Below, one piece after another: positions 10,095 through 37,344 of a stretch of DNA of 64,000 bases. The notes below the pieces were generated by a model. That model did no database searches. It was not told the origin of the DNA and worked only from the letters and a program-made list of their open reading frames with translations. Source of the stretch: Trypanosoma brucei (lineage: Eukaryota); contig CM000208.1 of assembly GCA_000002445.1 (NCBI GenBank), positions 2,624,001-2,688,000 on the forward strand. The letters are read 5' to 3'. The stretch's first letter is position 1; the number at the start of each line of letters is the position of its first letter. The position numbers and the translations under genes were made by a program.

Positions 10095-11615
10095 TGCTAT
10101 GTCACCCTCAGGTTGTGCCTCAGGTTGTGCAGGTGTGCTTCTGCAGGAACTTGCTGTGGTTCTTCAAGCTCTTCAAGTGCTTCCACTGCTATGTCACCCT
10201 CAGGTTCGCTGCCTCAGGTTGTGCTTCTGCAGGAACTTGCTGTGGTTCTTCAAGCTCTTCAAGTGCTTCCACTGCTATGTCACCCTCAGGTGCCGCTGCC
10301 TCAGGTTGTGCTTCTGCAGGAACTTGCTGTGGCTCTTCAAGCTCTTCAAGTGCTTCCACTGCTATGTCACCCTCAGGTGCCGCTGCCTCAGGTTGTGCCT
10401 CAGGTTGTGCTTCTGCAGGAACTTGCTGTGGCTCTTCAAGCTCTTCAAGTGCTTCCACTGCTATGTCACCCTCAGGTGCCGCTGCCTCAGGTTGTGCCTC
10501 AGGTTGTGCTTCTGCAGGAACTTGCTGTGGTTCTTCAAGCTCTTCAAGTGCTTCCACTGCTATGTCACCCTCAGGTGCCGCTGCCTCAGGTTGTGCCTCA
10601 GGTTGTGCTTCTGCAGGAACTTGCTGTGGCTCTTCAAGCTCTTCAACTGCTTCCACTGCTATGTCACCCTCAGGTTGTGCCTCAGGTTGTGCTTCTGCAG
10701 GAACTTGCTGTGGCTCTTCAAGCTCTTCAAGTGCTTCCACTGCTATGTCACCCTCAGGTGCCGCTGCCTCAGGTTGTGCCTCAGGTTGTGCTTCTGCAGG
10801 AACTTGCTGTGGTTCTTCAAGCTCTTCAAGTGCTTCCACTGCTATGTCACCCTCAGGTGCCGCTGCCTCAGGTTGTGCCTCAGGTTGTGCTTCTGCAGGA
10901 ACTTGCTGTGGCTCTTCAAGCTCTTCAACTGCTTCCACTGCTATGTCACCCTCAGGTTGTGCCTCAGGTTGTGCTTCTGCAGGAACTTGCTGTGGCTCTT
11001 CAAGCTCTTCAAGTGCTTCCACTGCTATGTCACCCTCAGGTGCCGCTGCCTCAGGTTGTGCCTCAGGTTGTGCTTCTGCAGGAACTTGCTGTGGCTCTTC
11101 AAGCTCTTCAAGTGCTTCCACTGCTATGTCACCCTCAGGTGCCGCTGCCTCAGGTTGTGCCTCAGGTTGTGCTTCTGCAGGAACTTGCTGTGGCTCTTCA
11201 AGCTCTTCAACTGCTTCCACTGCTATGTCACCCTCAGGTTGTGCCTCAGGTTGTGCTTCTGCAGGAACTTGCTGTGGCTCTTCAAGCTCTTCAAGTGCTT
11301 CCACTGCTATGTCACCCTCAGGTGCCGCTGCCTCAGGTTGTGCCTCAGGTTGTGCTTCTGCAGGAACTTGCTGTGGCTCTTCAAGCTCTTCAACTGCTTC
11401 CACTGCTATGTCACCCTCAGGTGCCGCTGCCTCAGGTTGTGCCTCAGGTTGTGCTTCTGCAGGAACTTGCTGTGGCTCTTCAAGCTCTTCAAGTGCTTCC
11501 ACTGCTATGTCACCCTCAGGTTGTGCCTCAGGTTGTGCTTCTGCAGGAACTTGCTGTGGCTCTTCAAGCTCTTCAACTGCTTCCACTGCTATGTCACCCT
11601 CAGGTGCCGCTGCCT
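7860..11615. repeat. Tandem array of 84/87/99-nt coding repeats (28/29/33 aa), about 40 copies
   Basis: Direct reading. The unit ...atgtcaccctcaggtgccgctgcctcaggttgtgc[ctcaggttgtgc]ttctgcaggaacttgctgtggctcttcaagctcttcaa(c/g)tgcttccactgct recurs with 87-nt spacing (for example 7921 to 8008). Variants carry a 12-nt insertion (99 nt) or a 3-nt deletion (84 nt). Confidence 0.95.
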
Positions 11616-14600
11616 CAGGCTGCGCAATGTCAAGCTCCTTTTGATCTTCAGGCTCAAGTGTCTGAATCACCTCAAGCTGCGCAATGTCAAGCTCCTTTTG
11701 ATCTTCAGGCTCGAGTGTCTGAATCACCTCAGGCTGCGCAATGTCAAGCTCCTTTTGATCTTCAGGCTCAAGTGTCTGAATCACCTCAGGCTGCGCAATG
11801 TCAAGCTCCTTTTGATCTTCAGGCTCGAGTGTCTGAATGACCTCAGGCTGCGCAATGTCAAGCTCCTTTTGATCCTCAGGTTCAAGTGTCTGAATCACCT
11901 CAGGCTGCGCAATGTCAAGCTCCTTTTGATCTTCAGGCTCGGGTGTCTGAATCACCTCAGGCTGCGCAATGTCAAGCTCCTTTTGATCTTCAGGCTCGAG
12001 TGTCTGAATCACCTCAGGCTGCGCAATGTCAAGCTCCTTTTGATCTTCAGGCTCAAGTGTCTGAATCACCTCAGGCTGCGCAATGTCAAGCTCCTTTTGA
12101 TCTTCAGGCTCGGGTGTCTGAATCACCTCAGGCTGCGCAATGTCAAGCTCCTTTTGATCTTCAGGCTCGAGTGTCTGAATCACCTCAGGCTGCGCAATGT
12201 CAAGCTCCTTTTGATCTTCAGGCTCAAGTGTCTGAATCACCTCAGGCTGCGCAATTTCAAGCTCCTTTTGATCTTCAGGCTCAAGTGTCTGAATCACCTC
12301 AGGCTGCGCAATGTCAAGCTCCTTTTGATCTTCAGGCTCGAGTGTCTGAATCACCTCAGGCTGCGCAATGTCAAGCTCCTTTTGATCTTCAGGTTCAAGT
12401 GTCTGAATCACCTCAGGCTGCGCAATGTCAAGCTCCTTTTGATCTTCAGGCTCGAGTGTCTGAATCACCTCAGGCTGCGCAATGTCAAGCTCCTTTTGAT
12501 CTTCCGGCTCAAGTGTCTGAATCACCTCAGGCTGCGCAATGTCAAGCTCCTTTTGATCTTCAGGCTCAAGTGTCTGAATCACCTCAGGCTGCGCAATGTC
12601 AAGCTCCTTTTGATCTTCAGGCTCAAGTGTCTGAATCACCTCAGGCTGCGCAATGTCAAGCTCCTTTTGATCTTCAGGCTCAAGTGTCTGAATCACCTCA
12701 GGCTGCGCAATGTCAAGCTCCTTTTGATCTTCAGGCTCAAGTGTCTGAATCACCTCAGGCTGCGCAATGTCAAGCTCCTTTTGATCTTCAGGCTCAAGTG
12801 TCTGAATCACCTCAAGCTGCGCAATGTCAAGCTCCTTTTGATCTTCAGGCTCAAGTGTCTGAATCACCTCAGGCTGCGCAATGTCAAGCTCCTTTTGATC
12901 TTCAGGCTCGGGTGTCTGAATCACCTCAGGCTGCGCAATGTCAAGCTCCTTTTGATCTTCAGGCTCAAGTGTCTGAATCACCTCAGGCTGCGCAATGTCA
13001 AGCTCCTTTTGATCTTCAGGCTCGAGTGTCTGAATGACCTCAGGCTGCGCAATGTCAAGCTCCTTTTGATCCTCAGGTTCAAGTGTCTGAATCACCTCAG
13101 GCTGCGCAATGTCAAGCTCCTTTTGATCTTCAGGCTCGGGTGTCTGAATCACCTCAGGCTGCGCAATGTCAAGCTCCTTTTGATCTTCAGGCTCAAGTGT
13201 CTGAATCACCTCAGGCTGCGCAATGTCAAGCTCCTTTTGATCTTCAGGCTCAAGTGTCTGAATCACCTCAGGCTGCGCAATTTCAAGCTCCTTTTGATCT
13301 TCAGGCTCAAGTGTCTGAATCACCTCAGGCTGCGCAATGTCAAGCTCCTTTTGATCTTCAGGCTCAAGTGTCTGAATCACCTCAGGCTGCGCAATGTCAA
13401 GCTCCTTTTGATCTTCAGGCTCAAGTGTCTGAATCACCTCAGGCTGCGCAATGTCAAGCTCCTTTTGATCTTCAGGCTCGAGTGTCTGAATCACCTCAGG
13501 CTGCGCAATGTCAAGCTCCTTTTGATCTTCAGGCTCAAGTGTCTGAATCACCTCAGGCTGCGCAATGTCAAGCTCCTTTTGATCTTCAGGCTCAAGTGTC
13601 TGAATCACCTCAGGCTGCGCAATGTCAAGCTCCTTTTGATCTTCAGGCTCGAGTGTCTGAATCACCTCAGGCTGCGCAATGTCAAGCTCCTTTTGATCTT
13701 CAGGTTCAAGTGTCTGAATCACCTCAGGCTGCGCAATGTCAAGCTCCTTTTGATCTTCAGGTTCAAGCTTTTTGAATGCAATTTTCTCTGTATGTTCACG
13801 CTCCTTTTTTTTGTTTTCTTGTGTGATTTCTTCTTGATGATCGTTTGTTTTTAATTTTTCTTTTTGTGGTTTATTTTCTTTTGGGAGTTGAACTTCTTGG
13901 GGATCTTGGTTTGTGGTCGAGTCCTGTTTTTTTAGTTGTGGTTGGTGCCACTGCTGCTGCTCGGCTGTTTCATGAGCGTGAGCAAAACTTTTTTTCGGGT
14001 CAAGTATTTTGGTGTTTTGAGGCAGTGATTGCCTTTTTTGATTTGCTTCTTTACATGTTTGTTTTTTACTAATTGTTTCAGTTAGTGGCGTTTGGGCACT
14101 GCTGATGCGTGCCTCCTTAGCTTTGAGGTATATCGTCCTTCTCTCCATTTCTTGAAGGATGTCACCTCTGTTGATTTGTTCATTTTTTTCCATTCGTTGG
14201 CGTAATTTGCCTTCATCTTCAACCACGCCAACTACCTTCTTTAGTTCATGAAACGCCTCTTGCAGTAGAAGGTATGACCTTCGCAGGTCTACCATGATTT
14301 CCATGTAACTGAAGTAATGCTTTGTGTCAAGTGCTATTCTTTCTTGTATATTTTTCTGATACTGCCTCTCAACAAGCCGTTGGCGCTGTTTGGCGTGCAT
14401 ATCCCTCAGAACTTGTCTGTGAGTTTCACTGCGCTGTTTGTCTTTAATATCCAACGTTTCGCGCGTTTTGGCACTTATGTGTTCATATTTTTCCTTTGAT
14501 ATTCGGTCAATAGTCTCCTGCACTTTTGGCAAGAGAGTATCGAGCATGCGGTCAATGCGGCGTAGGGTGCGGTTGCGTTCGTTTTCTTCCTTTTTCCGAA

Positions 14601-15138
14601 TCCTCGCAGAAACCTCCTTGTCTAACTCATGCTGTGTTTTGTCATGGTCGTATTTTGTTAGCACCTGCTGTAGGCGTGAAGACCGCCATAGTCTAATATT
14701 ACTGTCAATTTGCGCGATTTCCTCCTCAATTGAAGGACTGTCATTAACAATGTGTCGTTGACTAAAAAAAACAGAGTTTAACACAGGTTGCCCGGCATCA
14801 GGAAGGGACTTGCTCACCTCTGTATAAAACGTCATATCGTGCATTGCATCACTAACCAACAACCCCTTAGCCACATCATCTGCTGCTGCAGCGCCGGCGT
14901 ACACGGACGGTCCTTTCGGACGCCGGAAAGAGGAGAGGGGGAGATAATCCGGCTTTGAGGGTTTGGCAGGGATCTTCAATTGCTTGCTATCGACCTCTGT
15001 GCTGACTTGCTCCAGTAGTGGTTCTGCAACCGTCGACGTTGTTGTAGGTTGCTCCTTGGCCTGCTCCTGAGGCGATCTCCCCTCGCCTGGGGAATTATTA
15101 TACATTGCTACTGCTGTTGCTATTTTCCCCCTTTCCAC
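10189..15138 (-). CDS. Giant repetitive protein, N-terminal 1649 aa. A unique charged, coiled-coil-like domain of about 450 aa is followed by about 38 copies of a 19-aa repeat (LEPEDQKELDIAQPEVIQT), then in-frame 28/33-aa repeats.
   Basis: Long ORF with a unique N-terminal region (15138 to about 13780) and a seamless in-frame junction between the two repeat types at about 11.62-11.64 kb. Together with 7857..10094 it would encode about 2400 aa. Confidence 0.8.
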   Translation of the reverse strand: MERGKIATAVAMYNNSPGEGRSPQEQAKEQPTTTSTVAEPLLEQVSTEVDSKQLKIPAKPSKPDYLPLSSFRRPKGPSVYAGAAAADDVAKGLLVSDAMHDMTFYTEVSKSLPDAGQPVLNSVFFSQRHIVNDSPSIEEEIAQIDSNIRLWRSSRLQQVLTKYDHDKTQHELDKEVSARIRKKEENERNRTLRRIDRMLDTLLPKVQETIDRISKEKYEHISAKTRETLDIKDKQRSETHRQVLRDMHAKQRQRLVERQYQKNIQERIALDTKHYFSYMEIMVDLRRSYLLLQEAFHELKKVVGVVEDEGKLRQRMEKNEQINRGDILQEMERRTIYLKAKEARISSAQTPLTETISKKQTCKEANQKRQSLPQNTKILDPKKSFAHAHETAEQQQWHQPQLKKQDSTTNQDPQEVQLPKENKPQKEKLKTNDHQEEITQENKKKEREHTEKIAFKKLEPEDQKELDIAQPEVIQTLEPEDQKELDIAQPEVIQTLEPEDQKELDIAQPEVIQTLEPEDQKELDIAQPEVIQTLEPEDQKELDIAQPEVIQTLEPEDQKELDIAQPEVIQTLEPEDQKELDIAQPEVIQTLEPEDQKELDIAQPEVIQTLEPEDQKELEIAQPEVIQTLEPEDQKELDIAQPEVIQTLEPEDQKELDIAQPEVIQTPEPEDQKELDIAQPEVIQTLEPEDQKELDIAQPEVIQTLEPEDQKELDIAQPEVIQTLEPEDQKELDIAQPEVIQTPEPEDQKELDIAQPEVIQTLEPEDQKELDIAQLEVIQTLEPEDQKELDIAQPEVIQTLEPEDQKELDIAQPEVIQTLEPEDQKELDIAQPEVIQTLEPEDQKELDIAQPEVIQTLEPEDQKELDIAQPEVIQTLEPEDQKELDIAQPEVIQTLEPEDQKELDIAQPEVIQTLEPEDQKELDIAQPEVIQTLEPEDQKELDIAQPEVIQTLEPEDQKELEIAQPEVIQTLEPEDQKELDIAQPEVIQTLEPEDQKELDIAQPEVIQTPEPEDQKELDIAQPEVIQTLEPEDQKELDIAQPEVIQTLEPEDQKELDIAQPEVIQTPEPEDQKELDIAQPEVIQTLEPEDQKELDIAQPEVIQTLEPEDQKELDIAQPEVIQTLEPEDQKELDIAQPEVIQTLEPEDQKELDIAQLEVIQTLEPEDQKELDIAQPEAAAPEGDIAVEAVEELEEPQQVPAEAQPEAQPEGDIAVEALEELEEPQQVPAEAQPEAQPEAAAPEGDIAVEAVEELEEPQQVPAEAQPEAQPEAAAPEGDIAVEALEELEEPQQVPAEAQPEAQPEGDIAVEAVEELEEPQQVPAEAQPEAQPEAAAPEGDIAVEALEELEEPQQVPAEAQPEAQPEAAAPEGDIAVEALEELEEPQQVPAEAQPEAQPEGDIAVEAVEELEEPQQVPAEAQPEAQPEAAAPEGDIAVEALEELEEPQQVPAEAQPEAQPEAAAPEGDIAVEALEELEEPQQVPAEAQPEAQPEGDIAVEAVEELEEPQQVPAEAQPEAQPEAAAPEGDIAVEALEELEEPQQVPAEAQPEAQPEAAAPEGDIAVEALEELEEPQQVPAEAQPEAQPEAAAPEGDIAVEALEELEEPQQVPAEAQPEAAAPEGDIAVEALEELEEPQQVPAEAQPEAANLRVT
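11615..13775. repeat. Tandem array of a 57-nt coding repeat (19 aa), about 38 copies, highly homogenised
   Basis: Direct reading. ttgatcttcaggctcaagtgtctgaatcacctcaggctgcgcaatgtcaagctcctt repeats with exact 57-nt period; only a few point variants (caa/cgg/cga, gtc/ttc). Confidence 0.95.
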
Positions 15139-18030: not shown

Positions 18031-19737
18031 CTAAATCACCTCTGCTGCATGTTTCTTGTACCTTTCGACGATCCACTTTGTGCGCTGCTTCAGATCAACA
18101 ATGGGGCTGGGATAGGCCGATCCACCAACGATGCTGCCCCCAAGCGGTAGCTCCGTCTTTTCCTTTTTTATTCCGTTGCTTTCCTTCACAGTTCCTTGCA
18201 CTGTACCTAATGTGCCCTGGTCCGCTGGTCGCCCCTCCTTGCAAAACACATCCCACTTGTGTATCGTCCTCACAGACACATTCCGGAGCTCTGGCACCCA
18301 TTGTTTGATAAACACGGCCTGCGGATCGTGCTGAGCGGACTGGCGGAACGGGTTAAAGAAACGAAAATACGGCTGTGCATCAGCACCCTGGCCCGATGAC
18401 CAGAGCCAACCGCCGCTGTTATTAGCCACATCGTAGTCCACAGCGACGGTAGCGTACCACCGCTCACCTTCCCTCCAATCCACAAAGAGAACCTTCACAA
18501 GAAAATTGGCAATTAACATCCGGCAGCGGTTGTGACACCAACCCGTTTTCGTCAAACAGCGTACCGCAGCGTCCACAAGCGGGAATCCTGTGGCTCCGGA
18601 CTTGAACGCGGTAAATTCTGCGTCATTCCACTCCCACTGGAAATTAGAGTACTTCTCCAGAAACGGCTCATTGGCAAGCGTCGCACGACATTGTCGCTCA
18701 CCCTGAGGGGCAACGTCCATCTTTAGTTGCCCCAATGCCAGACGCGGGTTGTGATAGAGTAACATCGAATAGAACTCGCGCCAAATGAGTTGCCTAGTAA
18801 ATGCATGCTCCTTCCCCAAGTGTAGCAATGCAACCTGCATGGCCTCACGGATAGAGATGGTACCAAATTTTAAATGCGGACTTAAATGTGTCGTTTTGTC
18901 CCCCGGAATGTCGTCTCGGATGGCAGAATAATTTTTTGCCGATGCAACGCTTGCCAACCGTAGCAACCCTTCACTTCTTCCGCCCCTATCCACCAGTTCG
19001 GGAAAGGTTTGGGGAAGGGCTGCTAAATCAACGTAGTCAACCAGTGAAGAGAACTCATCCGCGGCCATGGCGCTCCTCCTTGCTTGATCTACAGTAGCTT
19101 TGACATCTTCCTTTACATGGGAACCGGTAAAAATATCACCGATGGTGGTGGCCTTAGGATTTGGCGCTTGTATGTCGCTGAAGTGCTCCTGTAGAACGGC
19201 ACGATAAAAAGGACTGAAGACACGGTACGGTTTTCCATTCTTGTTAGTTACTACATCCGGGGGGAGTAGTGTATAATCCATGTTGCTGGTGACACACCGT
19301 ACACCCCGTTTCACACACCATTCTTCGAGCTGAAGATCACGTTTACGTGCAAAAGGCGTAATATCGCGGTTAAAACCAAGCTGTTTGATGTCGTAACCAG
19401 AGGAACGAACCACCTCGAGACAGTCACAATCACTACCACGAAGACAAACTAGACGTCCACCAAGCTGAACAGTATCCAAATGTTTCAGTGATTGGCATAG
19501 GAACTCAAAGCAAGCCTTACCGAAATAAGGGTTCTTATCGGGGTCACACTGCCTTGGATTGAAAAAGAACAGGGGAATGACGGGTAGCGACTGTTTGCCA
19601 GCCCGTTCTATCAGCAGCAGCAGACCGGTGTTGTCAGTCACACGGAAATCTCGCCTAAAAATGAACACCGCTGCTGGGAGCGGTTGACTCGGGGTTCGCT
19701 GCCTCTTGACGGCGACAACACGACTCGGTACGTACAT
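18031..19737 (-). CDS. Deoxyribodipyrimidine (CPD) photolyase / cryptochrome-DASH family flavoprotein, 568 aa
   Basis: Motifs read directly: LSPHLKFG, WREFY, TGFPLVDAAVRCLTKTGWCHNRCRMLIANFLVK, DYDVANNSGGWLWSSG, YFRFFNPFRQ. These are the canonical FAD-binding-domain signatures of the photolyase family. Confidence 0.9.
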   Translation of the reverse strand: MYVPSRVVAVKRQRTPSQPLPAAVFIFRRDFRVTDNTGLLLLIERAGKQSLPVIPLFFFNPRQCDPDKNPYFGKACFEFLCQSLKHLDTVQLGGRLVCLRGSDCDCLEVVRSSGYDIKQLGFNRDITPFARKRDLQLEEWCVKRGVRCVTSNMDYTLLPPDVVTNKNGKPYRVFSPFYRAVLQEHFSDIQAPNPKATTIGDIFTGSHVKEDVKATVDQARRSAMAADEFSSLVDYVDLAALPQTFPELVDRGGRSEGLLRLASVASAKNYSAIRDDIPGDKTTHLSPHLKFGTISIREAMQVALLHLGKEHAFTRQLIWREFYSMLLYHNPRLALGQLKMDVAPQGERQCRATLANEPFLEKYSNFQWEWNDAEFTAFKSGATGFPLVDAAVRCLTKTGWCHNRCRMLIANFLVKVLFVDWREGERWYATVAVDYDVANNSGGWLWSSGQGADAQPYFRFFNPFRQSAQHDPQAVFIKQWVPELRNVSVRTIHKWDVFCKEGRPADQGTLGTVQGTVKESNGIKKEKTELPLGGSIVGGSAYPSPIVDLKQRTKWIVERYKKHAAEVI

Positions 19738-24329: not shown

Positions 24330-27300
24330 CTACAGCCCCACACTGGCTTCTTGCGACGCATCGTACACGAGCGACAGTAAAGTCATATGGTCTATGCTCT
24401 CTATTCCACACATGAGTAACTCCACGGCGTACTCCTCAAGGAAGCTACTGAGAAGTTCTCTTTGAGTGCACCCTTCGTGCTTCCAACCAACGGTTGTGTA
24501 AAACTCCTGGAAGGAGTGTACAATGCATTCACGAATCATGCCGTCTCTCAAAAACGGCAAAGACAGCGTGGCTGCACACTCACGCACACCACCACAGCAG
24601 CCATGATCATGTTTTTCAGTGGTGTGACTGCTATCAGCGCTTTCAGCGAAATGACGACTCCGCGCAAGGGCATACTGGAGCCGAACCCCCGTTAGCAGTG
24701 GATGGTTTGGTGGTAGAATCTGTCGCAAGTCTTCAAGCAGTTCCTCGCAAAGCAGCAGAAGCATATGACTGTCGTGGGTTGTCAACTGGGAGCGAAGAGA
24801 TAGCGCCAAACACTCCAGCCTTGTCTGCAGGCGGATATAATGTGTTGTGGGTAGCGCACAGGCAAACGAGTCTAAGTCCATCAGGCGTCGCAAAGCCGTT
24901 TGCGCTAGTCGATCTTCTCCTGCGCCATTATCATCGTCATCACTCCCTTCCTCCATCCCGTCAACCTCAATCCCCTGTACCTCCTCACTCGATCCAACTG
25001 TACCGGCTTCAACCTCAACCTCGCAAGCACTCGCGCCAACGCCCCCAAACGTGCTAGTACTTTCAAATTCTTCACATGCTTTGTCCACTGCGTTTGCATA
25101 TCCTTGCAGGATACGTCTCGAGAGCGACTCGTAAGTGTCTGAATCTGCTCGTGAACAGTCGCTAGCATGCTCGTAGGACCGCTGACCCTTGGGAAGCGAA
25201 AGGTCCACCAATACGCAAGGATACGTGTGAACCCCCCTTGTGGGTTGCCGACCCGCACTACCTTGATACTTATCACAATTTTTTTGTGCATCCTCGGGGT
25301 CATATATTAGCTGCCTGCACTCAGGACATATAACACCCTCCAAAAGCGCGGTGCTTGACTTGCAGAAAGAGCAGCAGCAACAGAAACCGTTTTGCTCGTC
25401 CTTTAGAGTTTTCGGAATTAGTACTGAGGAAAGATACGATACAGTAATTTCCTCACCGGGCTCAATGTCGCGGAGGGCAATAACACAGACATCACCCTTC
25501 CCCTCTCCGAAGGAGCTGCTGCCTTGTGATTCTTCGCTGCACAGGGGCAAAATTATGGCATTAGGCTTACAGCTGTGGTTGATCAACGAAACCAACGGAA
25601 GGAGGGCGCGGCATGGGGTAAGCACTTCGGCCTTCGGAGTGGCTCTGAAATCTTGTGGTGCTTCAAGCGGAACAGAACACCGTCGCCAGCAGCACATGAG
25701 GTCGGCTAGATCACGTGCAATGGCTGCCTCATAGTCCACATTTTCCCTTCCCGCGCCTTGAGTTGGGTGCATCCCACTTTCACCCGAGAAAGGCATCATT
25801 GCAAGTAAGTGTAACGCCGAATGCATATCAGGTGCCTCAACAGGGTCACCGAGGAGCTTCCCAACTCGCAAAGCTTTGACAATGGAGGAGGTTGCTAACT
25901 CATCCTTATGGACGAAGCCCCCGCGAAGAAACAGTTCTAAGGCCCCGTTCACCACGGCAGCATTTTCACCGTCCGGGGCCTCCACAATGTCAGTGACCCG
26001 CTCCTGCTTCCGCTTTTGTGGTGACACTTGGCCAACAAGCAGCAGCGACCTGTCCTTCACAACTACTGCGCCCTCCATGATATGGTTTGTAGCAATAAGC
26101 CCAACACCGTGTTTGATGCGCCACCTGTTGCTGCTCGGTTCAACAGACGGATGCAGCAAGGGTGTACAAGCACTGTGCGGGGTATCACCTTCCCCATCCG
26201 ACGATAGCCCCACACCAAACATTGCCAAACGAATTCGGCGAATCAAATCGTCACACGGCGCGTTGAATTGTGCAACCGCTATTTGCGCAGCCGTAAGGGC
26301 ATCGATAAGGCAGCGCATGGAGGTTGAGAGACCCTCGCGGCTTATCCACAAAAGCTTGTGGCAACCATTCACACCCCCGCTCACCACAGTTTTGCCATCA
26401 GTTGCGTTCTGGTAGCTCCCCGGTACTCCCTTCACAAAAGACAAGTGCGAAAACAGTCGGGCCTGTTGCAGTTGGATGTCAGCCTTGCCAATATAAAGCC
26501 TTCGCAGCTCATCGTACCCTGCCGGAATGCGGCGAGAAAAGAGGTCGACGGTGGAATTAAGTTCATTCAAAAAAGCAGTGACTGTTTCCGCGTCGTGCAA
26601 CTGGCGTTTGCACTCTGAACTTTGTGGTGCTGTGGTGGACAAGAAAAGGTCTTCAAAAAGCAACCATCCATCATCATTGTCAGAGCACATGGACGATGTA
26701 GCCTCCGCCTTTGGTGGGGTCATAGCGCTCACGGTTTCGGGCATCCACCACCACTCTGTCATAGGCAGCATGTCGTAGAGGCCGCCACTGCACAAATCAG
26801 GTTTGTAATCTGAAGTAAGCGTTACGTGAGCCTCGCACCAACGCCACGCGCGGGAAGCGGCGTAGACGCGGCGCCACCGACAGTGTAGAGTGCTCAGCGC
26901 ACTGCACGTCTTGTCGGTGTTCGCTGCTCGCATCAGAGTTTCAATGATATCCACCTCTTCCTTTTCTATTCTTACTCTAGTAGCCGCATGAATTTCGTGC
27001 TGCGTGAAAGACTCAAGAATACTAATCACTGTCCGCATGAGTAGCTCGCCCGCATGCGTGAAGAGCTGGAAGGCCTGCTCCTCATCCCTACCGCTTCCGC
27101 TCTCGACGCCCAGCGTGCCCCATTCTCCTTTACGGTGCGCCTGCTCTGCTATTTCGTGCAGTTTTCGGCCAACGATGGTGAGGGATTCCGCGTCGTGCCC
27201 GCACTCTTTCAGACGTTTCCTCAGCGATTCAAGGTCTCGTGACTTGTCTTCCACCCATGACATCCCAGGTGGGTTGGCAACTACCCTGACATCAAACATT

Positions 27301-27500
27301 ACAAGAAGCCCCACGGACGGCGGGGGCATGTGGAAGAAGATAAAAGAGGGGGAGAAAGTAGAGACTTTGCATGAGATCCGAATACATTTTACCCTTCGCA
27401 GGCAGCGAAGAGCAATAATAGTGACAACAATAACAACAACAACCGTTGATATTATATATATATATATATAAAGTGCTCTGTTTAAAATCCTTTCCACCAC
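24330..27500 (-). CDS. SET-domain protein (lysine methyltransferase family), about 1000 aa. The true start is probably MPPPSVG or MSWVED near 27.26-27.33 kb; the first about 55 codons of the track ORF translate an (AT)n/(GTT)n microsatellite.
   Basis: SET signatures LINHSCKPNAIILP (about 25555-25600) and GEEITVSYL (about 25440-25465), followed by a Cys cluster (FCCCCSFC...CPEC). Confidence 0.8.
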   Translation of the reverse strand: MVERILNRALYIYIYIISTVVVVIVVTIIALRCLRRVKCIRISCKVSTFSPSFIFFHMPPPSVGLLVMFDVRVVANPPGMSWVEDKSRDLESLRKRLKECGHDAESLTIVGRKLHEIAEQAHRKGEWGTLGVESGSGRDEEQAFQLFTHAGELLMRTVISILESFTQHEIHAATRVRIEKEEVDIIETLMRAANTDKTCSALSTLHCRWRRVYAASRAWRWCEAHVTLTSDYKPDLCSGGLYDMLPMTEWWWMPETVSAMTPPKAEATSSMCSDNDDGWLLFEDLFLSTTAPQSSECKRQLHDAETVTAFLNELNSTVDLFSRRIPAGYDELRRLYIGKADIQLQQARLFSHLSFVKGVPGSYQNATDGKTVVSGGVNGCHKLLWISREGLSTSMRCLIDALTAAQIAVAQFNAPCDDLIRRIRLAMFGVGLSSDGEGDTPHSACTPLLHPSVEPSSNRWRIKHGVGLIATNHIMEGAVVVKDRSLLLVGQVSPQKRKQERVTDIVEAPDGENAAVVNGALELFLRGGFVHKDELATSSIVKALRVGKLLGDPVEAPDMHSALHLLAMMPFSGESGMHPTQGAGRENVDYEAAIARDLADLMCCWRRCSVPLEAPQDFRATPKAEVLTPCRALLPLVSLINHSCKPNAIILPLCSEESQGSSSFGEGKGDVCVIALRDIEPGEEITVSYLSSVLIPKTLKDEQNGFCCCCSFCKSSTALLEGVICPECRQLIYDPEDAQKNCDKYQGSAGRQPTRGVHTYPCVLVDLSLPKGQRSYEHASDCSRADSDTYESLSRRILQGYANAVDKACEEFESTSTFGGVGASACEVEVEAGTVGSSEEVQGIEVDGMEEGSDDDDNGAGEDRLAQTALRRLMDLDSFACALPTTHYIRLQTRLECLALSLRSQLTTHDSHMLLLLCEELLEDLRQILPPNHPLLTGVRLQYALARSRHFAESADSSHTTEKHDHGCCGGVRECAATLSLPFLRDGMIRECIVHSFQEFYTTVGWKHEGCTQRELLSSFLEEYAVELLMCGIESIDHMTLLSLVYDASQEASVGL
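27425..27472. repeat. Compound microsatellite (AAC)n followed by (TA)9
   Basis: Direct reading: acaacaataacaacaacaaccgttgatattatatatatatatatata. Confidence 0.9.
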
Positions 27501-28043: not shown

Positions 28044-31000
28044 TCACGCCCGCTCCCCCGGGGGAGTGGCGACACTGTCGCGAAAACGGGAAATGGTATC
28101 CTCATGAGTGCGCTCCTCCGTCTCTGTTGATCCCGCATGCCCCATCCCATCATCTTCTACAAGAGCCACGTCGATATCTGAGGACGTTGCGTGCATCCTG
28201 GAAAATACAATCGCTGCAATAGCAAATATTACAACCACACCGATAAAAGAACAGACCACGAAAACTTGAGAGTTTTTACCCCAAACTGATCGGTGCACGG
28301 GGTCCTCTGTCCATCCCCCAACAAAAGCACCTCCTCCCACGACGAGGTACCCCGCCTCCTGCCGTTCTCCCCATTCATCTTCCGAGAATCTAGTTTCAAT
28401 GCCAATAGGATATATTTCCTCCCCTTTGCTCTGCAGTACCTTAAGTGTGCAGGTGATGGTGCTCGCACTCGCGCTCAGTACATCACACAAGACGGCTGCA
28501 TCTGATGTATCATCTCCAACAATTACCCGGTTGTATTCAGCGCCAACTGGGTTGAAGTTATTGCCATGTAGTGTCAACTTGGTGTCATTCACACACCACG
28601 CGCTGATAGAGGCGCAGGATCCCGTCACGTATTCCACCGACGGTGGAGATGGGTGAACCTGGAGCGTTGTGAAGGAACCACTGGAAAACGGCACGGCTTT
28701 ACCCCCGCTTGAAACCACGGCCGTCCAGTTGCACGCCAGAGGGGTATTCACGTGTACCTCACACGTTAGAAGTTCCTCTGTTATGCTCAGCACGGAACAA
28801 AATGGTTTCGTGCAATCCGGTCTGGGTGTTCCCGAGGACGTAAAGTTAACAGCGTATCCCTTCCGGGGATCAAACCGTCCGTAGAATTGAGCCACGACAC
28901 CGTCACGCACCATCCGCGGTCGAATGGCCGCCACAATATCGTCCGCCGGCGCCGGTGGAAGCGTCACTGTGATATTTATAGGAAACCCCACAACCTTTGA
29001 CGATTCAACACGCACTGTTGCAGCTGTATACGGTGGCAGGGAACACGAAAGACAGACACACAGACAACTGATGCTACCGTTGTAGCCGTATAAATCCTGG
29101 GTAAAGGGGAAAGACACGTTAGAGTATATGACAGCAACGCCATCGGTGCTGCGGGAAAACTCTTGATGGCATTTGTGTGTGCCACAGTCAGCTGGGGAGT
29201 TAGGGTTGCCTGTTGGGATCAAAACGGCGTCACCGAGTTCCAGTGCACTTCCCTCTGCCTTAAATGCAGATGCTTGCGTTCCCACCACCTCCTTTGGTGT
29301 TATCGACAGAGTGCGGTACTCCAAACGAGTTGCAGCAAGCGTGCCGGTCATGTTAGGGTTGTAGGCTATCATGTAGAATGACCCAATATTGAGGGGAGGG
29401 ACAACCACCGCGTTCTTCTGAGCAACTGGGAGCACACCAGAAAAACTCAATGATGGCCTCTGAATCTTGGCGTATTCTCCTTGCAAAAATCTTTCCACCA
29501 TCGACTCGTCGGTGTCAGTGCGTAAAAGAGAAAAATACCACCCATCCTTCACACCTTTCACAGAGAGGCTGCATGGGGAATAGGCCAGGCAAGCAACCCG
29601 GTTGACCAGTATCTCTGAACTCCCATTTGGCAAGGCGGTTGCTTTCCCCCTCGTGAGTAGGCTCCAGGACTCTCGTACGAAAGTCAATCCACCAGTACGA
29701 TACCTAGCGTCGTTTTTAGTGCTGCTTGCCGGAACACCTCCTTGTAAATCACCTACGATGGGTGTGGACCGTGTGACTCCTTCTGGCATCTTCACGACGA
29801 CACGGTCGGGGGCCGGGGGGAAGTCGTACGTATAACCAACCCTGCCGCGTGCACGGTTGGGCGGGATGACGCTTAGCCACATAGGTGGCGCTGGAGTGCC
29901 GCCGCAACATGCCACAGCCAGCTGGCCTAGGTGGCGATTGTGGGGGTCCTTCGCTGGACTCCACCTTCCATCGTCCTTACGCCACGCATGGCAGAGCAGT
30001 GTTTTGTTGCCGCGTTTTACGGTAATTTGGGCCCACCCATTTTCTGCGGAATTTACAGGAACCCAGAAGGATTTTTGTGGGGTGGATGCTGCCTCTCTCG
30101 GGGCGACGCCGAGTGGGCATATCTCGGATAGTGAGCAAAGTTGCATACCGTTTTTCTTCCTGCAAGTGTTCTGTGCACTCTCCCACGTTATTTTACCCCG
30201 TGCAGCATGAAAGACACGTGATTTACCCGTCGTGTTCAATTTTAGTATTAATCGATTCCAGCCCCTCGCCAACCTAACCTGGTAAAGATAGTGCCCTACG
30301 GAAGACGATGAGGACGAACCAACGAATAGACCATCCACCCACAATCCATGATCTGCATGGGAAGCCACACGTATCCCCACTTTCATCTCCTCCGCTGCGT
30401 ACAGCGCAAGTGCCCTATACTGGTTGAAGCTTCCACAAATACTCTCGCCCCTCCAGAGACCATTTGTACTTCTCTCCGCCACCCACTCGTACTGGCGCCT
30501 CTCACCAAGCACCCAGACACTCTCCGTAGATAGGATCATGGAGCTAGGGCGCGAATCCAAAGGAAAGTCTGTCAGCTGAGCACTAGGCGACATTTCGGCC
30601 TCCAGATCGTGTGGAATTGCTCCTACAGTCGATTCTTTCTTAACAAGTCTCATCAGAGTCAGCACCGGTGCTTCCGCCTGCACGGGAGTGAGGTAAGGTG
30701 GAAGATCGTTACCGAGTGCGTTGACACCCTTAACCTCGCAGCTTCCAAGGTGGATTTTAAATGAAAGGAACCAAGAATGACCATTGATAGCAACGGTGCG
30801 GAGAATAATTGAATGCCACCCCGGTGACAGGTAAGTTGTAACACTCTCTTGCTTTCTTTCCGTACCATTTCCTCGGGAATAAGCAGGCGTGCTGTCCAAA
30901 AATAAGTCCGTTTCACCTTCAGTGACAAAAGTCCAGCAAACCGACGCGAAGCTGTTACGGCCGTTGTGAAGGGAAAAGGCAATGTATGACACAGCCGACC

Positions 31001-32714
31001 CTTTCCCTTTGTGGAGATTCACTCCATACACCGGTATTTTCCCGTCGGGGGATGTTAGTGTTGTCCACGTAAGGTTTCCTACCTTTCTCCCAGGCTGGGG
31101 AAAAACTCGCAGCACATCAACAACACTCCCATCGAAACCACCGTAAACGAAGTCTACCCACTCTTTTCCAAGATGGAGAAATTTGGAAACGTGTAGGTCG
31201 TCCATCAGCTCATAAGCTGCGCCTTCCATACGCGGTACACCCCTGAGAGAGTAGCCAACAGCAGTGCCAACAACACGCATCCAAAACTTGGATGTAGCGA
31301 GCAACTCAGTTCGGTTATTGACACTATATTGATCAAAAAACAACTTGATAAACACCTGGTGGAAGCCTTCAGTTAGAGAGACGTCAAACGAACTTTCATT
31401 CGATGGGTCGGCACTCCGTGGAGTGAAGCGTTTACCGTCGACATACACCACCGCTGTGGCATCGAAACCATATCGCACAGTGACACGCTGGGTCGCAGCA
31501 CTATAAAGAGAAAAAGCGTAGAATTGCAAACTTCTGTGCGGCACCTTCGCTACAAACACACCATCGTCTGCGGCCAACTCCCGCCACACATCCTGCAAGA
31601 AGTGCTCGCTGTCAATGCGCACCATACTCCTGCTGCCGACCTGCGGTCGAATTTGTGCCTCACCGCCAACGACAGTGGGAGCGAACCAATCCCTTTCGAG
31701 GGCAGTTGATCTTTCCACTGCACGTATTGCCGTGCCCGCTTCACCAAAATGCAGCAGACGTGGGACAAGTGCGTCAGGGTATGCTGACACGTCGGCTGGA
31801 AGCCGCCCAACAACATTCAAAACAGCTTTCAGTATTTTCGCGTTCGCGGTTTCAGGCCCATTCACAACTTCCACGACAATTACATACTCCCTAGCACCTT
31901 CCGCTGGGGGGCCGGCGTAATGTGTATAACGACCTGTTGGGCTCTCCGCGATGGTGGTGTTACCGTTTGCTGTGATACGGAACGTCACATTTCCTTGATA
32001 CGGCTCGCTGTGTCTGTTCCACACGTTCACTTCAAATACAACTGGACCATTGACAACCGCAACGGTTGGTTTGAACCTCCAAGCGAGGTACAACGCCGGT
32101 TTTGTTGGAACGAACACTAGTCGATAGGGCCGCCCCCATGCTGCAGGCTCACCAGGCGTCAAAGCGCAGCACCCGCCGGTATGACTCGTATCATCGTTGT
32201 TATCTCCCCAGAACGAGAGCGTCCTCCCACCACTTTCCTCCGTGTATCCTTCACCTGAGCCACCAAGGACACCGGTGTCTAGCGGTTCGGACACCACGCG
32301 TGTGTAACCATCCCATGCGGGATCACGCGGGTCTCGCGGGGCGTACACGTAGTTCCGCGTGGCGTTCATGTTAGTGAGGAGGTTGCACAAGGTGACCCCA
32401 GGAAGGGGAATGAGGTGATCCGCAAATGAGCCCATCTCGACAATCAAGACGTAGTTGTGTCCATGATAATCATACTCGACACATGGTTTCATGTAGTTCT
32501 TACCTCCATCGAATCCGTTTTGAATATCATCTGTGGTGATTCTGCGGGTACCGTCCAGGTTACCAACTACAACCCCATTTTCGGCAGCTGAAGCAAGTAC
32601 GGGCAAAACCGTAAACACAACAATAATGGCTAAAACATTTAAAAAAGTGCCTGGGGGGCTTAGTGCCATGAAGAATGCATTTCCCCTCCTCCTTTTTGCG
32701 CAAGCACACTTCAT
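28044..32714 (-). CDS. Large type I membrane glycoprotein, 1556 aa. It has an N-terminal signal peptide, many N-glycosylation sequons, an apparent C-type lectin-like domain, a single C-terminal TM helix and a 55-aa acidic cytoplasmic tail.
   Basis: N-terminus MALSPPGTFLNVLAIIVVFTVLPVLASA. C-terminus VFVVCSFIGVVVIFAIAAIVFSRMH then an acidic tail. CTLD-like segment ITWESAQNTCRKKNGMQLCSLSEIC...FWVPVNSAENGW...LCHAWRKDDGRW...LAVACC at about 29890-30200. Confidence 0.75.
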   Translation of the reverse strand: MKCACAKRRRGNAFFMALSPPGTFLNVLAIIVVFTVLPVLASAAENGVVVGNLDGTRRITTDDIQNGFDGGKNYMKPCVEYDYHGHNYVLIVEMGSFADHLIPLPGVTLCNLLTNMNATRNYVYAPRDPRDPAWDGYTRVVSEPLDTGVLGGSGEGYTEESGGRTLSFWGDNNDDTSHTGGCCALTPGEPAAWGRPYRLVFVPTKPALYLAWRFKPTVAVVNGPVVFEVNVWNRHSEPYQGNVTFRITANGNTTIAESPTGRYTHYAGPPAEGAREYVIVVEVVNGPETANAKILKAVLNVVGRLPADVSAYPDALVPRLLHFGEAGTAIRAVERSTALERDWFAPTVVGGEAQIRPQVGSRSMVRIDSEHFLQDVWRELAADDGVFVAKVPHRSLQFYAFSLYSAATQRVTVRYGFDATAVVYVDGKRFTPRSADPSNESSFDVSLTEGFHQVFIKLFFDQYSVNNRTELLATSKFWMRVVGTAVGYSLRGVPRMEGAAYELMDDLHVSKFLHLGKEWVDFVYGGFDGSVVDVLRVFPQPGRKVGNLTWTTLTSPDGKIPVYGVNLHKGKGSAVSYIAFSLHNGRNSFASVCWTFVTEGETDLFLDSTPAYSRGNGTERKQESVTTYLSPGWHSIILRTVAINGHSWFLSFKIHLGSCEVKGVNALGNDLPPYLTPVQAEAPVLTLMRLVKKESTVGAIPHDLEAEMSPSAQLTDFPLDSRPSSMILSTESVWVLGERRQYEWVAERSTNGLWRGESICGSFNQYRALALYAAEEMKVGIRVASHADHGLWVDGLFVGSSSSSSVGHYLYQVRLARGWNRLILKLNTTGKSRVFHAARGKITWESAQNTCRKKNGMQLCSLSEICPLGVAPREAASTPQKSFWVPVNSAENGWAQITVKRGNKTLLCHAWRKDDGRWSPAKDPHNRHLGQLAVACCGGTPAPPMWLSVIPPNRARGRVGYTYDFPPAPDRVVVKMPEGVTRSTPIVGDLQGGVPASSTKNDARYRTGGLTFVRESWSLLTRGKATALPNGSSEILVNRVACLAYSPCSLSVKGVKDGWYFSLLRTDTDESMVERFLQGEYAKIQRPSLSFSGVLPVAQKNAVVVPPLNIGSFYMIAYNPNMTGTLAATRLEYRTLSITPKEVVGTQASAFKAEGSALELGDAVLIPTGNPNSPADCGTHKCHQEFSRSTDGVAVIYSNVSFPFTQDLYGYNGSISCLCVCLSCSLPPYTAATVRVESSKVVGFPINITVTLPPAPADDIVAAIRPRMVRDGVVAQFYGRFDPRKGYAVNFTSSGTPRPDCTKPFCSVLSITEELLTCEVHVNTPLACNWTAVVSSGGKAVPFSSGSFTTLQVHPSPPSVEYVTGSCASISAWCVNDTKLTLHGNNFNPVGAEYNRVIVGDDTSDAAVLCDVLSASASTITCTLKVLQSKGEEIYPIGIETRFSEDEWGERQEAGYLVVGGGAFVGGWTEDPVHRSVWGKNSQVFVVCSFIGVVVIFAIAAIVFSRMHATSSDIDVALVEDDGMGHAGSTETEERTHEDTISRFRDSVATPPGERA

Positions 32715-36327: not shown

Positions 36328-37344
36328 TTAGTCCTTGCCTTGCCGTTGCCTTTCATGCGAGCCCCCGCGCTCCACCTCCTCAACTTTCTGCACTTCTGGT
36401 ACCCAGTGCCGTGTCGTCCGTTCAATCATATCCCTCAGAGTTGTCTTGCTGCTCCTACACTTACGGCACGCTCCCAGCATCTCAACCAGCATCACTGAAT
36501 CCGCAAGCCCAACAAAGCGAATGTCACCACCGTCAGCTTGAAGCTGTGGTCTAATCGTGGTAGAGATAAGTTCTTTCAACACCACCACTACCTCAGAATC
36601 GCCATCCTGTGGGATGGTATCTGGATGCGGGTGAGGAGCATCTGCGTCGATATGAGCCCGACCACTGTACAGGTGATCCGTGAGAAGGGCGCTAACATGA
36701 AGCTTTAGCTCACTCCAATGTGTGCTGCGCACCAGATCACGCAGAGCGGCCTCATCCACTGAGTCTAGTGCAACCCCGCCCTGCGAACCTAGATTATCCT
36801 CGGTGTTTTCGCCGCCACCGTCCACACTTTCGTTAGGGTCATTGCGACCAGAAAGTGTTTTTACCTGCTCGCAGTTTTCTTCCATGGCGTCCATAACCTT
36901 CCGCTGGAGCGCCGCTGACCGTTCGGCCGTTTCTTCCGGTGTCGCGGTGGGATTACCGCCGAGTCTAACAGCGTACTGTCGCACTGCAGCCGCCGTGTCG
37001 TCATCGTCCACACGGCGCACCGTCACAAAATCCCTCCCAATGGTAACTTCCTCCACCATAGGGAGATTGTGGAGAATGTGCTTGGCAAGGGGCGATTGAT
37101 GGCAGTTGTCAAAATCGAAACGAAGTGTATTTCCACTTTGTGGGAGAAATTCGACGCCTTTGACAAAAAACTTATAGCACGCTTCATTTGGCGTTTCGCG
37201 GAAGGAAACGAAGAAGCTCCTCTTGGAATCCACGTGTGCTTTGGGGGTTAGACATCCTCGAGTCAGCTCCTGCGCTATACGCGGGCAGCGGGCAACGTAG
37301 AAAGGACCAGCGCGGTAAAACAACCAGGAACCGACCCGCATCAA
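36328..37344 (-). CDS. NFU1: NFU1-type iron-sulfur cluster scaffold protein (Nfu_N plus NifU C-terminal domain), probably mitochondrial
   Basis: C-terminal NifU domain with the CxxC motif (...GDIRFVGLADSVMLVEMLGACRKCRSS...). N-terminal Nfu_N-like segment (FVKGVEFLPQSGNTLRFDFDN). Basic amphipathic N-terminus. Confidence 0.8.
   Translation of the reverse strand: MMRVGSWLFYRAGPFYVARCPRIAQELTRGCLTPKAHVDSKRSFFVSFRETPNEACYKFFVKGVEFLPQSGNTLRFDFDNCHQSPLAKHILHNLPMVEEVTIGRDFVTVRRVDDDDTAAAVRQYAVRLGGNPTATPEETAERSAALQRKVMDAMEENCEQVKTLSGRNDPNESVDGGGENTEDNLGSQGGVALDSVDEAALRDLVRSTHWSELKLHVSALLTDHLYSGRAHIDADAPHPHPDTIPQDGDSEVVVVLKELISTTIRPQLQADGGDIRFVGLADSVMLVEMLGACRKCRSSKTTLRDMIERTTRHWVPEVQKVEEVERGGSHERQRQGKD

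What the first reader, a model, noticed from the sequence alone, without database searches (positions are those of the whole stretch)
28044..32714. 1556-aa type I surface glycoprotein with an apparent C-type lectin-like domain
The protein has a signal peptide, more than 15 N-glycosylation sequons, a single C-terminal TM helix and a short acidic tail, which makes it a plausible surface or flagellar-pocket glycoprotein. The segment at about 29890-30200 reads TWESAQNTCRKKNGMQLCSLSEIC...FWVPVNSAENGW...LCHAWRKDDGRW...AVACC. This matches the C-type lectin-like domain skeleton: WxEA...C...GxxLxSIxSxEE, WIGL-like WVPV, and the Cys pair before the C-terminal CC. CTLDs are uncommon in trypanosomatids. 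A large CTLD-bearing ectodomain could be a carbohydrate receptor for host or vector ligands.
Basis: partly seen in the sequence, partly recalled or inferred. Interest (0 to 1): 0.65.

Follow-up and report, generated by a model that had tools for sequence, protein, structure and literature searches.

The report
Trypanosome membrane glycoprotein, compact lectin-fold module
This Trypanosoma brucei gene (most likely Tb927.10.11140) encodes a large, uncharacterised type I membrane glycoprotein. One of its roughly eleven extracellular modules (Pfam DUF7495) is predicted to have a compact C-type-lectin-like fold, but it lacks the calcium and sugar site of true C-type lectins.

Summary
The ORF at 28044-32714 (-) is 1556 aa, with an N-terminal signal-like segment, 17 N-x-S/T sequons, one C-terminal TM helix and an acidic 51-aa tail.

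The organism is Trypanosoma brucei (Q389M5 / XP_823323.1). By adjacency to SET4 the gene is inferred to be Tb927.10.11140. [quoted passage not shown]

The flagged segment (residues 838-940) is Pfam DUF7495, not Lectin_C (13.5 bits against a 22.6 cut-off).
- A 54-sequence profile found only E-selectin (E 0.005) and mannose receptor in the PDB.
- Foldseek found nothing.
- The domain has no EPN/QPD or WND motif.
- It has its own six-Cys pattern.

DUF7495 is widespread: 311 representative proteins, with tandem arrays in diatoms. Longer homologues of unknown origin add WSC, a true EPN Lectin_C and Laminin_G_3 upstream of the same cassette.

The fold assignment stands; a canonical carbohydrate-recognition domain and rarity in trypanosomes do not. 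Function remains inferred: extracellular ligand binding.

The parts
28044..32714 (-). Maximal ORF, 1556 aa plus stop. It corresponds to T. brucei Q389M5 / XP_823323.1 and is inferred to be Tb927.10.11140. The alternative start at Met16 (coordinate 32669) gives the 1541-aa TREU927 annotation.
32583..32714 (-). N-terminal signal-like region, residues 1-44. The hydrophobic core is at about 24-43, and cleavage is inferred after ASA41-43.
   Evidence: Hydropathy scan. Cleavage is inferred; no SignalP was available.
31788..32582 (-). Conserved N-terminal region, residues 45-309. It is the best-conserved part (54-57% identity to T. cruzi and T. theileri) and has no Pfam or PDB match.
31224..31787 (-). 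Internal repeat R1, residues 310-497.
   Evidence: hhalign R1/R3 probability 96.5%, R1/R2 88.4%. No Pfam or PDB hit.
30711..31223 (-). Internal repeat R2, residues 498-668.
30210..30710 (-). Internal repeat R3, residues 669-835.
29895..30203 (-). DUF7495 module, residues 838-940.
29595..29879 (-). Module at residues 946-1040. It matches CHB_HEX_C_1 / Fn3_assoc in the T. theileri, T. cruzi and long homologues, but is degenerate in T. brucei and gets no Pfam hit there.
29307..29594 (-). Unassigned conserved module, residues 1041-1136.
28962..29306 (-). DUF7496, residues 1137-1251.
   Evidence: Pfam E 2.5e-44
28647..28943 (-). DUF7497, residues 1258-1356.
   Evidence: Pfam E 3.5e-34
28335..28622 (-). 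DUF7498, residues 1365-1460. It is IPT/TIG-like only weakly: TIG E 1.1 here and 0.016 in T. theileri.
28200..28265 (-). Single transmembrane helix, residues 1484-1505.
   Evidence: Hydropathy maximum 3.07
28047..28199 (-). Cytoplasmic tail, residues 1506-1556. It is acidic (12 D/E, 5 K/R) and poorly conserved (17-20% identity to orthologues).

Best explanation
The gene encodes a conserved type I membrane glycoprotein found across the genus Trypanosoma (T. brucei Q389M5, inferred Tb927.10.11140). Its ectodomain of about 1440 residues is a chain of about eleven modules:
1. a conserved N-terminal head;
2. three homologous repeats of about 165 aa;
3. one DUF7495 module;
4. a CHB_HEX_C/Fn3_assoc-like module, eroded in T. 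brucei;
5. an unassigned module;
6. a membrane-proximal stalk of DUF7496, DUF7497 and DUF7498 (TIG-like).

It is a divergent, compact member of the C-type-lectin-like fold class, about 100 aa long. Helix alpha-1 carries the first Cys, the second helix is shortened around a 'C-x5-C-P-x-G' staple, there is a WIGL-like 'FWVPV' strand, and the domain ends in a 'CC' strand.

The likely disulfides are C851-C936 (the canonical alpha1-beta5 link), C860-C937 and C866-C908. These are inferred from co-loss of Cys in family members, not seen in coordinates.

The module lacks the long-loop Ca2+/sugar site, so it cannot work as a classical Ca2+-dependent C-type lectin. The most likely function is extracellular ligand binding, to a glycan or a protein. 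In that picture the module is a recognition or packing unit displayed on a rigid multi-domain stalk, as in invasin/intimin or Link-module proteins.

What is shown: gene structure, domain membership, internal repeats, predicted fold class, absence of Ca-site motifs, family distribution. What is inferred: membrane topology, glycosylation, disulfide map, cell location, and any binding function.
For: - ORF, sequons and hydropathy.
- Species and accession. Neighbour SET4 = Tb927.10.11130 = Q389M6.
- Detected as a protein in bloodstream forms and listed among surface proteins: PMC5256885.
- Pfam DUF7495/7496/7497/7498.
- Orthologues at about 40% identity in T. theileri, T. melophagium, T. cruzi, T. 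rangeli and T. grayi, with all six Cys invariant.
- Internal repeats: hhalign 88-96%.
- AF2 models: pLDDT 66 with 6 sequences and 80.7 / pTM 0.72 with 54 sequences.
- The A3 profile against 177,635 PDB sequences hits only E-selectin (E 0.0054, 82 columns in register) and mannose receptor (E 0.042).
- In a diatom protein with 12 DUF7495 copies, the summed Pfam scores pass the cut-offs of Xlink, Lectin_C and Intimin_C.
- No EPN/QPD/WND in the window domain, and these motifs are rare in 345 instances.
- C24 and C101 of the domain are lost together in 13 of 345 instances and singly in 2.
- Long homologues (P0054 and others) align end to end with the T. brucei ectodomain (E 6e-107). Upstream they carry WSC, a true Lectin_C with EPN, and Laminin_G_3.
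- Elsewhere DUF7495 co-occurs with Tectonin, WSC, Sushi, Cadherin and TIG.
Against: - Foldseek against the PDB found no match with E below 0.7.
- Lectin_C is below threshold.
- hhalign of the DUF7495 profile against the kinetoplastid-type Lectin_C aligned only the 25-column alpha-1 segment (probability 9.5%).
- No coordinates were available, so neither the disulfides nor the absence of a long loop could be inspected.
- T. brucei has lost the family's most conserved non-Cys motif (P-x-W-G). Its DUF7495 and the next module are the fastest-diverging parts (31% and 30% against 54%). The module may therefore be degenerating in this lineage rather than binding anything.
- There is no localisation or binding data. 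The CTLD-bearing IGPs of T. brucei are ER-resident (PMC4497807), so a surface location cannot be assumed.
Confidence: 0.6

Rival explanations
1. One reading: the segment is a canonical long-form C-type lectin domain that binds host or vector carbohydrate through the Ca2+-dependent site.
Against: Lectin_C is below the gathering score. There is no EPN/QPD and no WND. The domain is about 100 aa and matches compact forms best. In the long homologues a genuine EPN-type Lectin_C coexists with DUF7495 as a separate domain, so the two are distinct.
Confidence: 0.05
2. [not shown]
Against: Two models built from different alignments gave the same hit list, and nearly all listed matches belong to one fold class. 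An independent sequence-only profile search returned only CTLDs out of 177,635 PDB sequences. Three Pfam families of C-type-lectin-fold domains (Lectin_C, Xlink, Intimin_C) pass their cut-offs cumulatively on a diatom DUF7495 array.
Confidence: 0.12
3. The fold is CTLD-like, but in T. brucei the module is only a structural spacer. The protein would be an intracellular (ER, endosomal or lysosomal) glycoprotein rather than a surface receptor.
For: T. brucei has lost the P-x-W-G motif, and divergence of DUF7495 and the neighbouring module is accelerated. T. brucei IGPs with CTLDs are ER-localised (PMC4497807). There is no localisation evidence here.
Against: All six Cys and the rest of the core are retained in every orthologue. 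The protein rose together with ISGs and other surface proteins when the exocyst subunit Sec15 was depleted (PMC5256885). The tail has no obvious ER-retrieval motif, though this was judged only by eye.
Confidence: 0.23

Closest known systems
Pfam DUF7495 (PF24325), found with DUF7496, DUF7497 and DUF7498
   Same: The window domain scores 66-72 bits against a 27-bit cut-off. It has the same six-Cys scheme and the C-P-x-G motif. The whole C-terminal cassette (DUF7495, CHB_HEX_C-like, DUF7496, DUF7497, DUF7498) recurs in Trypanosoma orthologues and in 3300-aa homologues.
   Different: T. brucei lacks the family's P-x-W-G motif. Most family members, in diatoms, carry the domain as tandem arrays of 2 to 15 copies, whereas here there is one copy. 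Pfam records no function for the family.
Compact C-type-lectin-like domains: Link modules (TSG-6, LYVE-1, CD44, aggrecan G1), invasin D5 / intimin D3, and the Bdellovibrio Bd2740 C-terminal domain
   Different: There is no significant sequence similarity: Xlink reaches E 0.067 in only 2 of 54 members. The Cys pattern is different. In invasin and intimin the domain is the distal tip, whereas here it sits mid-chain.
Canonical C-type lectin domain (Pfam Lectin_C PF00059; E-selectin, mannose receptor, MBP)
   Different: The Pfam score is below threshold. There is no EPN/QPD or WND. The domain is shorter. Helix 2 is replaced by a short disulfide-stapled turn. It has three disulfides in a different arrangement.
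Trypanosome IGP34/40/48 and TcoClec (Fam77)
   Same: These are type I membrane glycoproteins of African trypanosomes with a weak CTLD (PMC4497807, PMC5349194).
   Different: They are small multigene families restricted to African trypanosomes. The domain is N-terminal and hits PF00059 (1.24e-4 as reported in the paper). They are ER-localised in T. brucei. The present gene appears single-copy, is about 1550 aa, is shared with stercorarian trypanosomes and hits DUF7495. No direct sequence comparison was run here.
Plexin / IPT-TIG receptors (the label used in PMC5256885)
   Same: It is a large type I protein with membrane-proximal Ig-like modules. DUF7498 gives weak TIG hits.
   Different: TIG is below threshold (9.7 bits against 20.9). 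No Sema, PSI or cytoplasmic GAP domain was found.

Membership tests
Pfam DUF7495 (PF24325) | Score above the curated gathering cut-off (27 bits) | tested here: met
   66.2 bits, E 3.9e-18 on the whole protein. 72 bits on the isolated domain.
Pfam DUF7495 (PF24325) | Six-Cys pattern (C15, C24, C30, C72, C100, C101 of the domain) and the C-P-x-G motif | tested here: met
   C851, C860, C866, C908, C936 and C937 plus 'CPLG' are present. 329 of 345 instances have all six Cys.
Pfam DUF7495 (PF24325) | P-x-W-G motif in the last loop (269 of 345 instances) | tested here: not met
   T. brucei reads 'GRWSPAK'. The P column is a gap in the alignment.
Canonical C-type lectin domain (Pfam Lectin_C PF00059) | Score above the gathering cut-off (22.6 bits) | tested here: not met
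   No hit at E up to 10 on the whole protein. 13.5 bits, E 0.13 on the trimmed domain.
Canonical C-type lectin domain (Ca2+-dependent CRD) | EPN or QPD tripeptide and WND motif forming Ca2+ site 2 | tested here: not met
   None is present in residues 837-942. [EQ]P[NDS] occurs in only 41 of 345 family instances and W[NS]D in 13. By contrast the Lectin_C of P0054 has EPN...ND.
Canonical C-type lectin domain | Long-loop region between strands beta2 and beta3 (domain of 115-130 aa) | tested here: inconclusive
   [not shown]
C-type-lectin-like fold (superfamily level) | Alpha/beta fold superposable on CTLD, Link or intimin cores | tested here: met
   [not shown]
C-type-lectin-like fold (superfamily level) | Disulfide linking helix alpha1 to the last strand (C1-C4) | tested here: inconclusive
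   A Cys in helix 1 (C851) and Cys in the last strand (C936/C937) are positioned appropriately. The pairing is inferred only from co-loss statistics.
Link module (Pfam Xlink PF00193) | Score above the gathering cut-off (27 bits) | tested here: not met
   No hit for the window domain. Best E is 0.067 in 2 of 54 family members. Only the summed score over 12 diatom copies passes.
IPT/TIG-plexin superfamily | TIG domain above the cut-off (20.9 bits); Sema and PSI domains | tested here: not met
   TIG scores 9.7 bits, E 1.1. There are no Sema or PSI hits.
Type I membrane glycoprotein | N-terminal signal sequence, single C-terminal TM, lumenal or extracellular sequons | tested here: met
   Hydropathy finds exactly two hydrophobic segments, and all 17 sequons lie N-terminal of the TM. 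Cleavage and glycan occupancy cannot be tested with these tools.
Cell-surface or flagellar-pocket protein of T. brucei | Experimental localisation or surface labelling | not testable with these tools
   The only evidence is a proteomics mention among 'surface proteins' (PMC5256885). The surface-proteome paper PMC4587323 is not held.

The most novel reading that the evidence does not exclude
DUF7495 is an ancient protist branch of the C-type-lectin fold that has not been described as such in any paper searched here. It has its own three-disulfide scheme and is used from diatom giant secreted proteins to kinetoplastid-type receptors as a Ca2+-independent glycan-binding module, as Link modules are. 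On this reading Tb927.10.11140 is a trimmed descendant of a WSC/C-type-lectin/LamG-bearing receptor that still binds a host or tsetse glycan at the parasite surface or flagellar pocket.
Probability: 0.15. Interest if true: 0.7.

Novelty: new variant of a known kind. Interest (0 to 1): 0.4.

Why it matters
Invariant, single-copy type I surface proteins of T. brucei are few, and they are of interest as receptors, drug-uptake routes and vaccine or diagnostic targets. This protein is detected in bloodstream forms and conserved across Trypanosoma, yet it is uncharacterised.

Assigning one of its 'DUF' modules to the C-type-lectin fold class gives a concrete and testable binding hypothesis. So does showing that longer relatives carry bona fide carbohydrate-binding modules.

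It also gives a fold assignment to a domain family that forms long tandem arrays in diatom extracellular proteins.

This is not a classical Ca2+-dependent lectin, and CTLD-type proteins are already known in African trypanosomes.

Tried and rejected
- Whole-protein and whole-alignment searches of PDB sequences gave only noise.
- Foldseek of the better model against the PDB found nothing significant. The afdb50 library was not available.
- Three word-indexed homologue searches (single sequence, 7-sequence alignment, alignment including the long homologues) all returned the same six Trypanosoma clusters. They therefore said nothing about Leishmania or bodonids, and absence there is not established.
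- The three internal repeats looked PA14-like to me from memory. Neither per-member Pfam scans nor a profile search of the PDB supported any assignment, so I make no PA14 claim.
- hhalign of DUF7495 against the kinetoplastid-type Lectin_C matched only helix 1 locally (probability 9.5%) and nothing in global mode.
- A synteny test between the P0054 contig and the window was negative: the downstream 879-aa gene is not SET4-like. The source organism of P0054 (run SRR12844112) remains unknown. All six called genes lie on one strand, which is kinetoplastid-like.
- Literature searches by accession and by DUF names found nothing. My remembered Nfu gene IDs found no paper.
- The gene ID was obtained indirectly through SET4 = Q389M6.
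- The supplements of PMC5256885 that are held do not contain the gene ID.

Full report
**Observation.** The window carries a 1556-codon ORF on the minus strand at 28044-32714. Translating 29890-30200 (-) reproduces the quoted string exactly. I counted 17 N-x-S/T sequons. A hydropathy scan finds only two hydrophobic segments: residues about 24-43 (signal-like) and 1484-1505 (TM). The 51-residue tail has 12 D/E and 5 K/R. All ORFs of 250 aa or more around it lie on the same strand, as expected for a trypanosomatid polycistronic unit. The description is therefore correct. Signal cleavage and glycosylation themselves are inferred.

**Identity.**
- The 90%-identity cluster of the best hit contains T. 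brucei brucei TREU927 XP_823323.1 / EAN78495.1 / Q389M5 (1541 aa, starting at Met16). It also contains T. b. gambiense DAL972 XP_011778512.1 (1556 aa) and T. b. equiperdum. All are annotated 'hypothetical protein, conserved'.
- The downstream neighbour in the window is a SET-domain ORF.
- A supplement of PMC8559703 lists SET4 = Tb927.10.11130 = Q389M6. By adjacency of both gene order and accession, this gene is inferred to be Tb927.10.11140.
[quoted passage not shown] It reports increased abundance in bloodstream forms after Sec15 depletion, together with ISGs and other surface proteins.
- Orthologues at about 40% identity over the full length exist in T. theileri, T. melophagium, T. cruzi, T. 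rangeli and (partial) T. grayi.

**Architecture.**
- Pfam finds DUF7495 (residues 840-938, E 4e-18), DUF7496 (1137-1251), DUF7497 (1258-1356) and DUF7498 (1365-1460). TIG is only a sub-threshold hit, and there is no Lectin_C hit even at E up to 10.
- In T. theileri, T. cruzi and the long homologues, the stretch after DUF7495 also matches CHB_HEX_C_1 / Fn3_assoc. It does not in T. brucei.
- Slicing the orthologue alignment and running hhalign shows three homologous internal repeats at 310-497, 498-668 and 669-835 (probabilities 88-96%). No Pfam or PDB relative was found for them.

**The flagged segment.** I built two alignments of the domain. A2 has 6 Trypanosoma-type sequences. A3 has 54 diverse instances taken from an exhaustive HMMER search.
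- AlphaFold2 gave pLDDT 66 / pTM 0.58 with A2 and pLDDT 80.7 / pTM 0.72 with A3.
- The predicted secondary structure, in order, is: a 10-residue helix carrying the first Cys, a short strand, a short helical turn around 'LCSLSEICPLG', three strands (FWVPV, GWAQITV, LLCHAW), a lower-confidence loop of about 20 residues, and a final strand ending in CC.
- Lower in the list are CD93, Lcl C-terminal domain, PLA2R, NK receptors, selectins and collectins. Nearly all of the 60 rows listed belong to the C-type-lectin-like fold class.
- Sequence evidence points the same way but is weak. The A3 profile against 177,635 PDB sequences returned only E-selectin (E 0.0054, 82 columns, helix-1 Cys on helix-1 Cys and 'WvPV' on 'WIGI') and mannose receptor (E 0.042).
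- The trimmed window domain gets Lectin_C at E 0.13, 13.5 bits against a cut-off of 22.6.
- On a Seminavis robusta protein with 12 copies, the summed scores pass the cut-offs of Xlink, Lectin_C and Intimin_C, although no single copy does.
- Against this, Foldseek found nothing. hhalign against a genuine kinetoplastid-type Lectin_C aligned only helix 1 (probability 9.5%).

**What it is not.**
- The domain has no EPN/QPD and no WND. These motifs are rare across 345 family instances.
- It is about 100 aa, and its best structural matches are the compact CTLD-like forms.
- The long homologues contain a separate, genuine Lectin_C with EPN/EPS and ND motifs. DUF7495 is therefore a distinct domain type, not a mis-scored Lectin_C.
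The fold-class reading survives.

**Family features.**
- 329 of 345 instances have all six Cys. C-P-x-G occurs in 287, P-x-W-G in 269 and a terminal CC in 331.
- The second and sixth Cys (T. brucei C860 and C937) are missing together in 13 instances and singly in only 2. The 13 are mostly paralogous diatom copies, so they represent few independent events.
- This suggests a C860-C937 disulfide. That leaves C851-C936 (the canonical alpha1-to-last-strand link) and C866-C908. This map is an inference.
- T. brucei lacks P-x-W-G.
- Against T. cruzi and T. theileri, its DUF7495 and the following module are the most diverged parts (31% and 30% identity against 54% for the N-terminus). Between T. cruzi and T. 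theileri these modules are average (54% and 62%).

**Distribution.**
- The domain profile found 311 representative proteins with E up to 1e-3 among 1.84 billion. Many have 2-15 tandem copies.
- Named examples are diatoms: Seminavis robusta (6919 and 4172 aa) and Skeletonema marinoi ('DUF7495 domain-containing protein').
- Partner domains include Tectonin, WSC, Sushi, Cadherin and TIG.
- Three proteins of about 3300 aa from unannotated assemblies (P0054, P0105, P0135) align end to end with the whole T. brucei ectodomain (25% identity over 1472 columns, E 6e-107). Upstream they carry WSC, Lectin_C and Laminin_G_3.
- The contig carrying P0054 has six genes on one strand.

**Mechanism.** The best-supported reading is a modular extracellular binding protein. 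A compact CTLD-fold unit is displayed within a chain of beta-rich modules on a TIG-like stalk, anchored by one TM helix. The company the domain keeps elsewhere (WSC, Lectin_C, LamG, Tectonin) makes a glycan ligand plausible. Any binding must use a non-canonical, Ca2+-independent surface, as in Link modules or invasin/intimin. A purely structural role in T. brucei, or an intracellular location as for the CTLD-bearing IGPs (PMC4497807), cannot be excluded.

**Comparison and novelty.**
- The gene is annotated and the domain is catalogued as a DUF.
- CTLD-bearing type I glycoproteins are already published in African trypanosomes (IGP, TcoClec; PMC4497807, PMC5349194).
- The contribution here has three parts: the fold-class assignment of DUF7495 as a divergent compact CTLD variant with its own disulfide scheme, its trypanosome-diatom distribution, and the lectin-rich long homologues.
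- I rate it a new variant of a known kind, of moderate interest (0.4).

Noticed in passing
window 7898-13767: There are two long tandem arrays: an 87-bp unit x41 (7898-11619, 92% matches) and a 57-bp unit x38 (11613-13767, 97% matches). They lie inside very long ORFs open on both strands (for example 10189-15138 on the minus strand and 7981-13854 on the plus strand). This is presumably a highly repetitive protein-coding gene.
   Followed up: no
window 51409-51666: Imperfect 36/72/108-bp repeats lie inside the ORF 51378-52811 (-), suggesting a low-complexity repeat protein.
   Followed up: no
window 18031-19737, 24330-27500, 36328-37344 (all on the minus strand): The neighbours are a DNA photolyase (FAD_binding_7 E 3e-67), the SET-domain protein SET4 (Tb927.10.11130) and an Nfu/NifU-type Fe-S scaffold protein. 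None is functionally related to the finding.
   Followed up: partly
window 32669 versus 32714 (start codons): The annotations disagree on the start: Met1 (1556 aa, T. b. gambiense and T. b. equiperdum) or Met16 (1541 aa, TREU927). Orthologue N-termini align with Met16.
   Followed up: partly
L001:3193-13356 (P0054, Logan run SRR12844112): This 3387-aa homologue has a C-terminal 1570 aa that matches the entire T. brucei ectodomain. Its N-terminal extension carries WSC, a canonical EPN-type Lectin_C and Laminin_G_3. The organism is unknown, and all six genes on the contig are on one strand.
   Followed up: partly
P0008 and P0007 (Seminavis robusta), P0012 (Skeletonema marinoi): Diatom giant proteins carry 6-15 tandem DUF7495 copies. 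On P0008 the summed Pfam scores pass the Xlink, Lectin_C and Intimin_C cut-offs, and a Tectonin domain is present.
   Followed up: partly
window 29595-30203 (residues 838-1040): The T. brucei DUF7495 and the following CHB_HEX_C-like module are the fastest-diverging parts of the ectodomain. The P-x-W-G motif is lost and the CHB_HEX_C/Fn3_assoc signal is gone.
   Followed up: partly
P0131 (T. melophagium XP_067188374.1, 572 aa): This second, shorter trypanosome protein has DUF7495 followed by the first 40 residues of DUF7496. It may be a truncated paralogue or a pseudogene.
   Followed up: no
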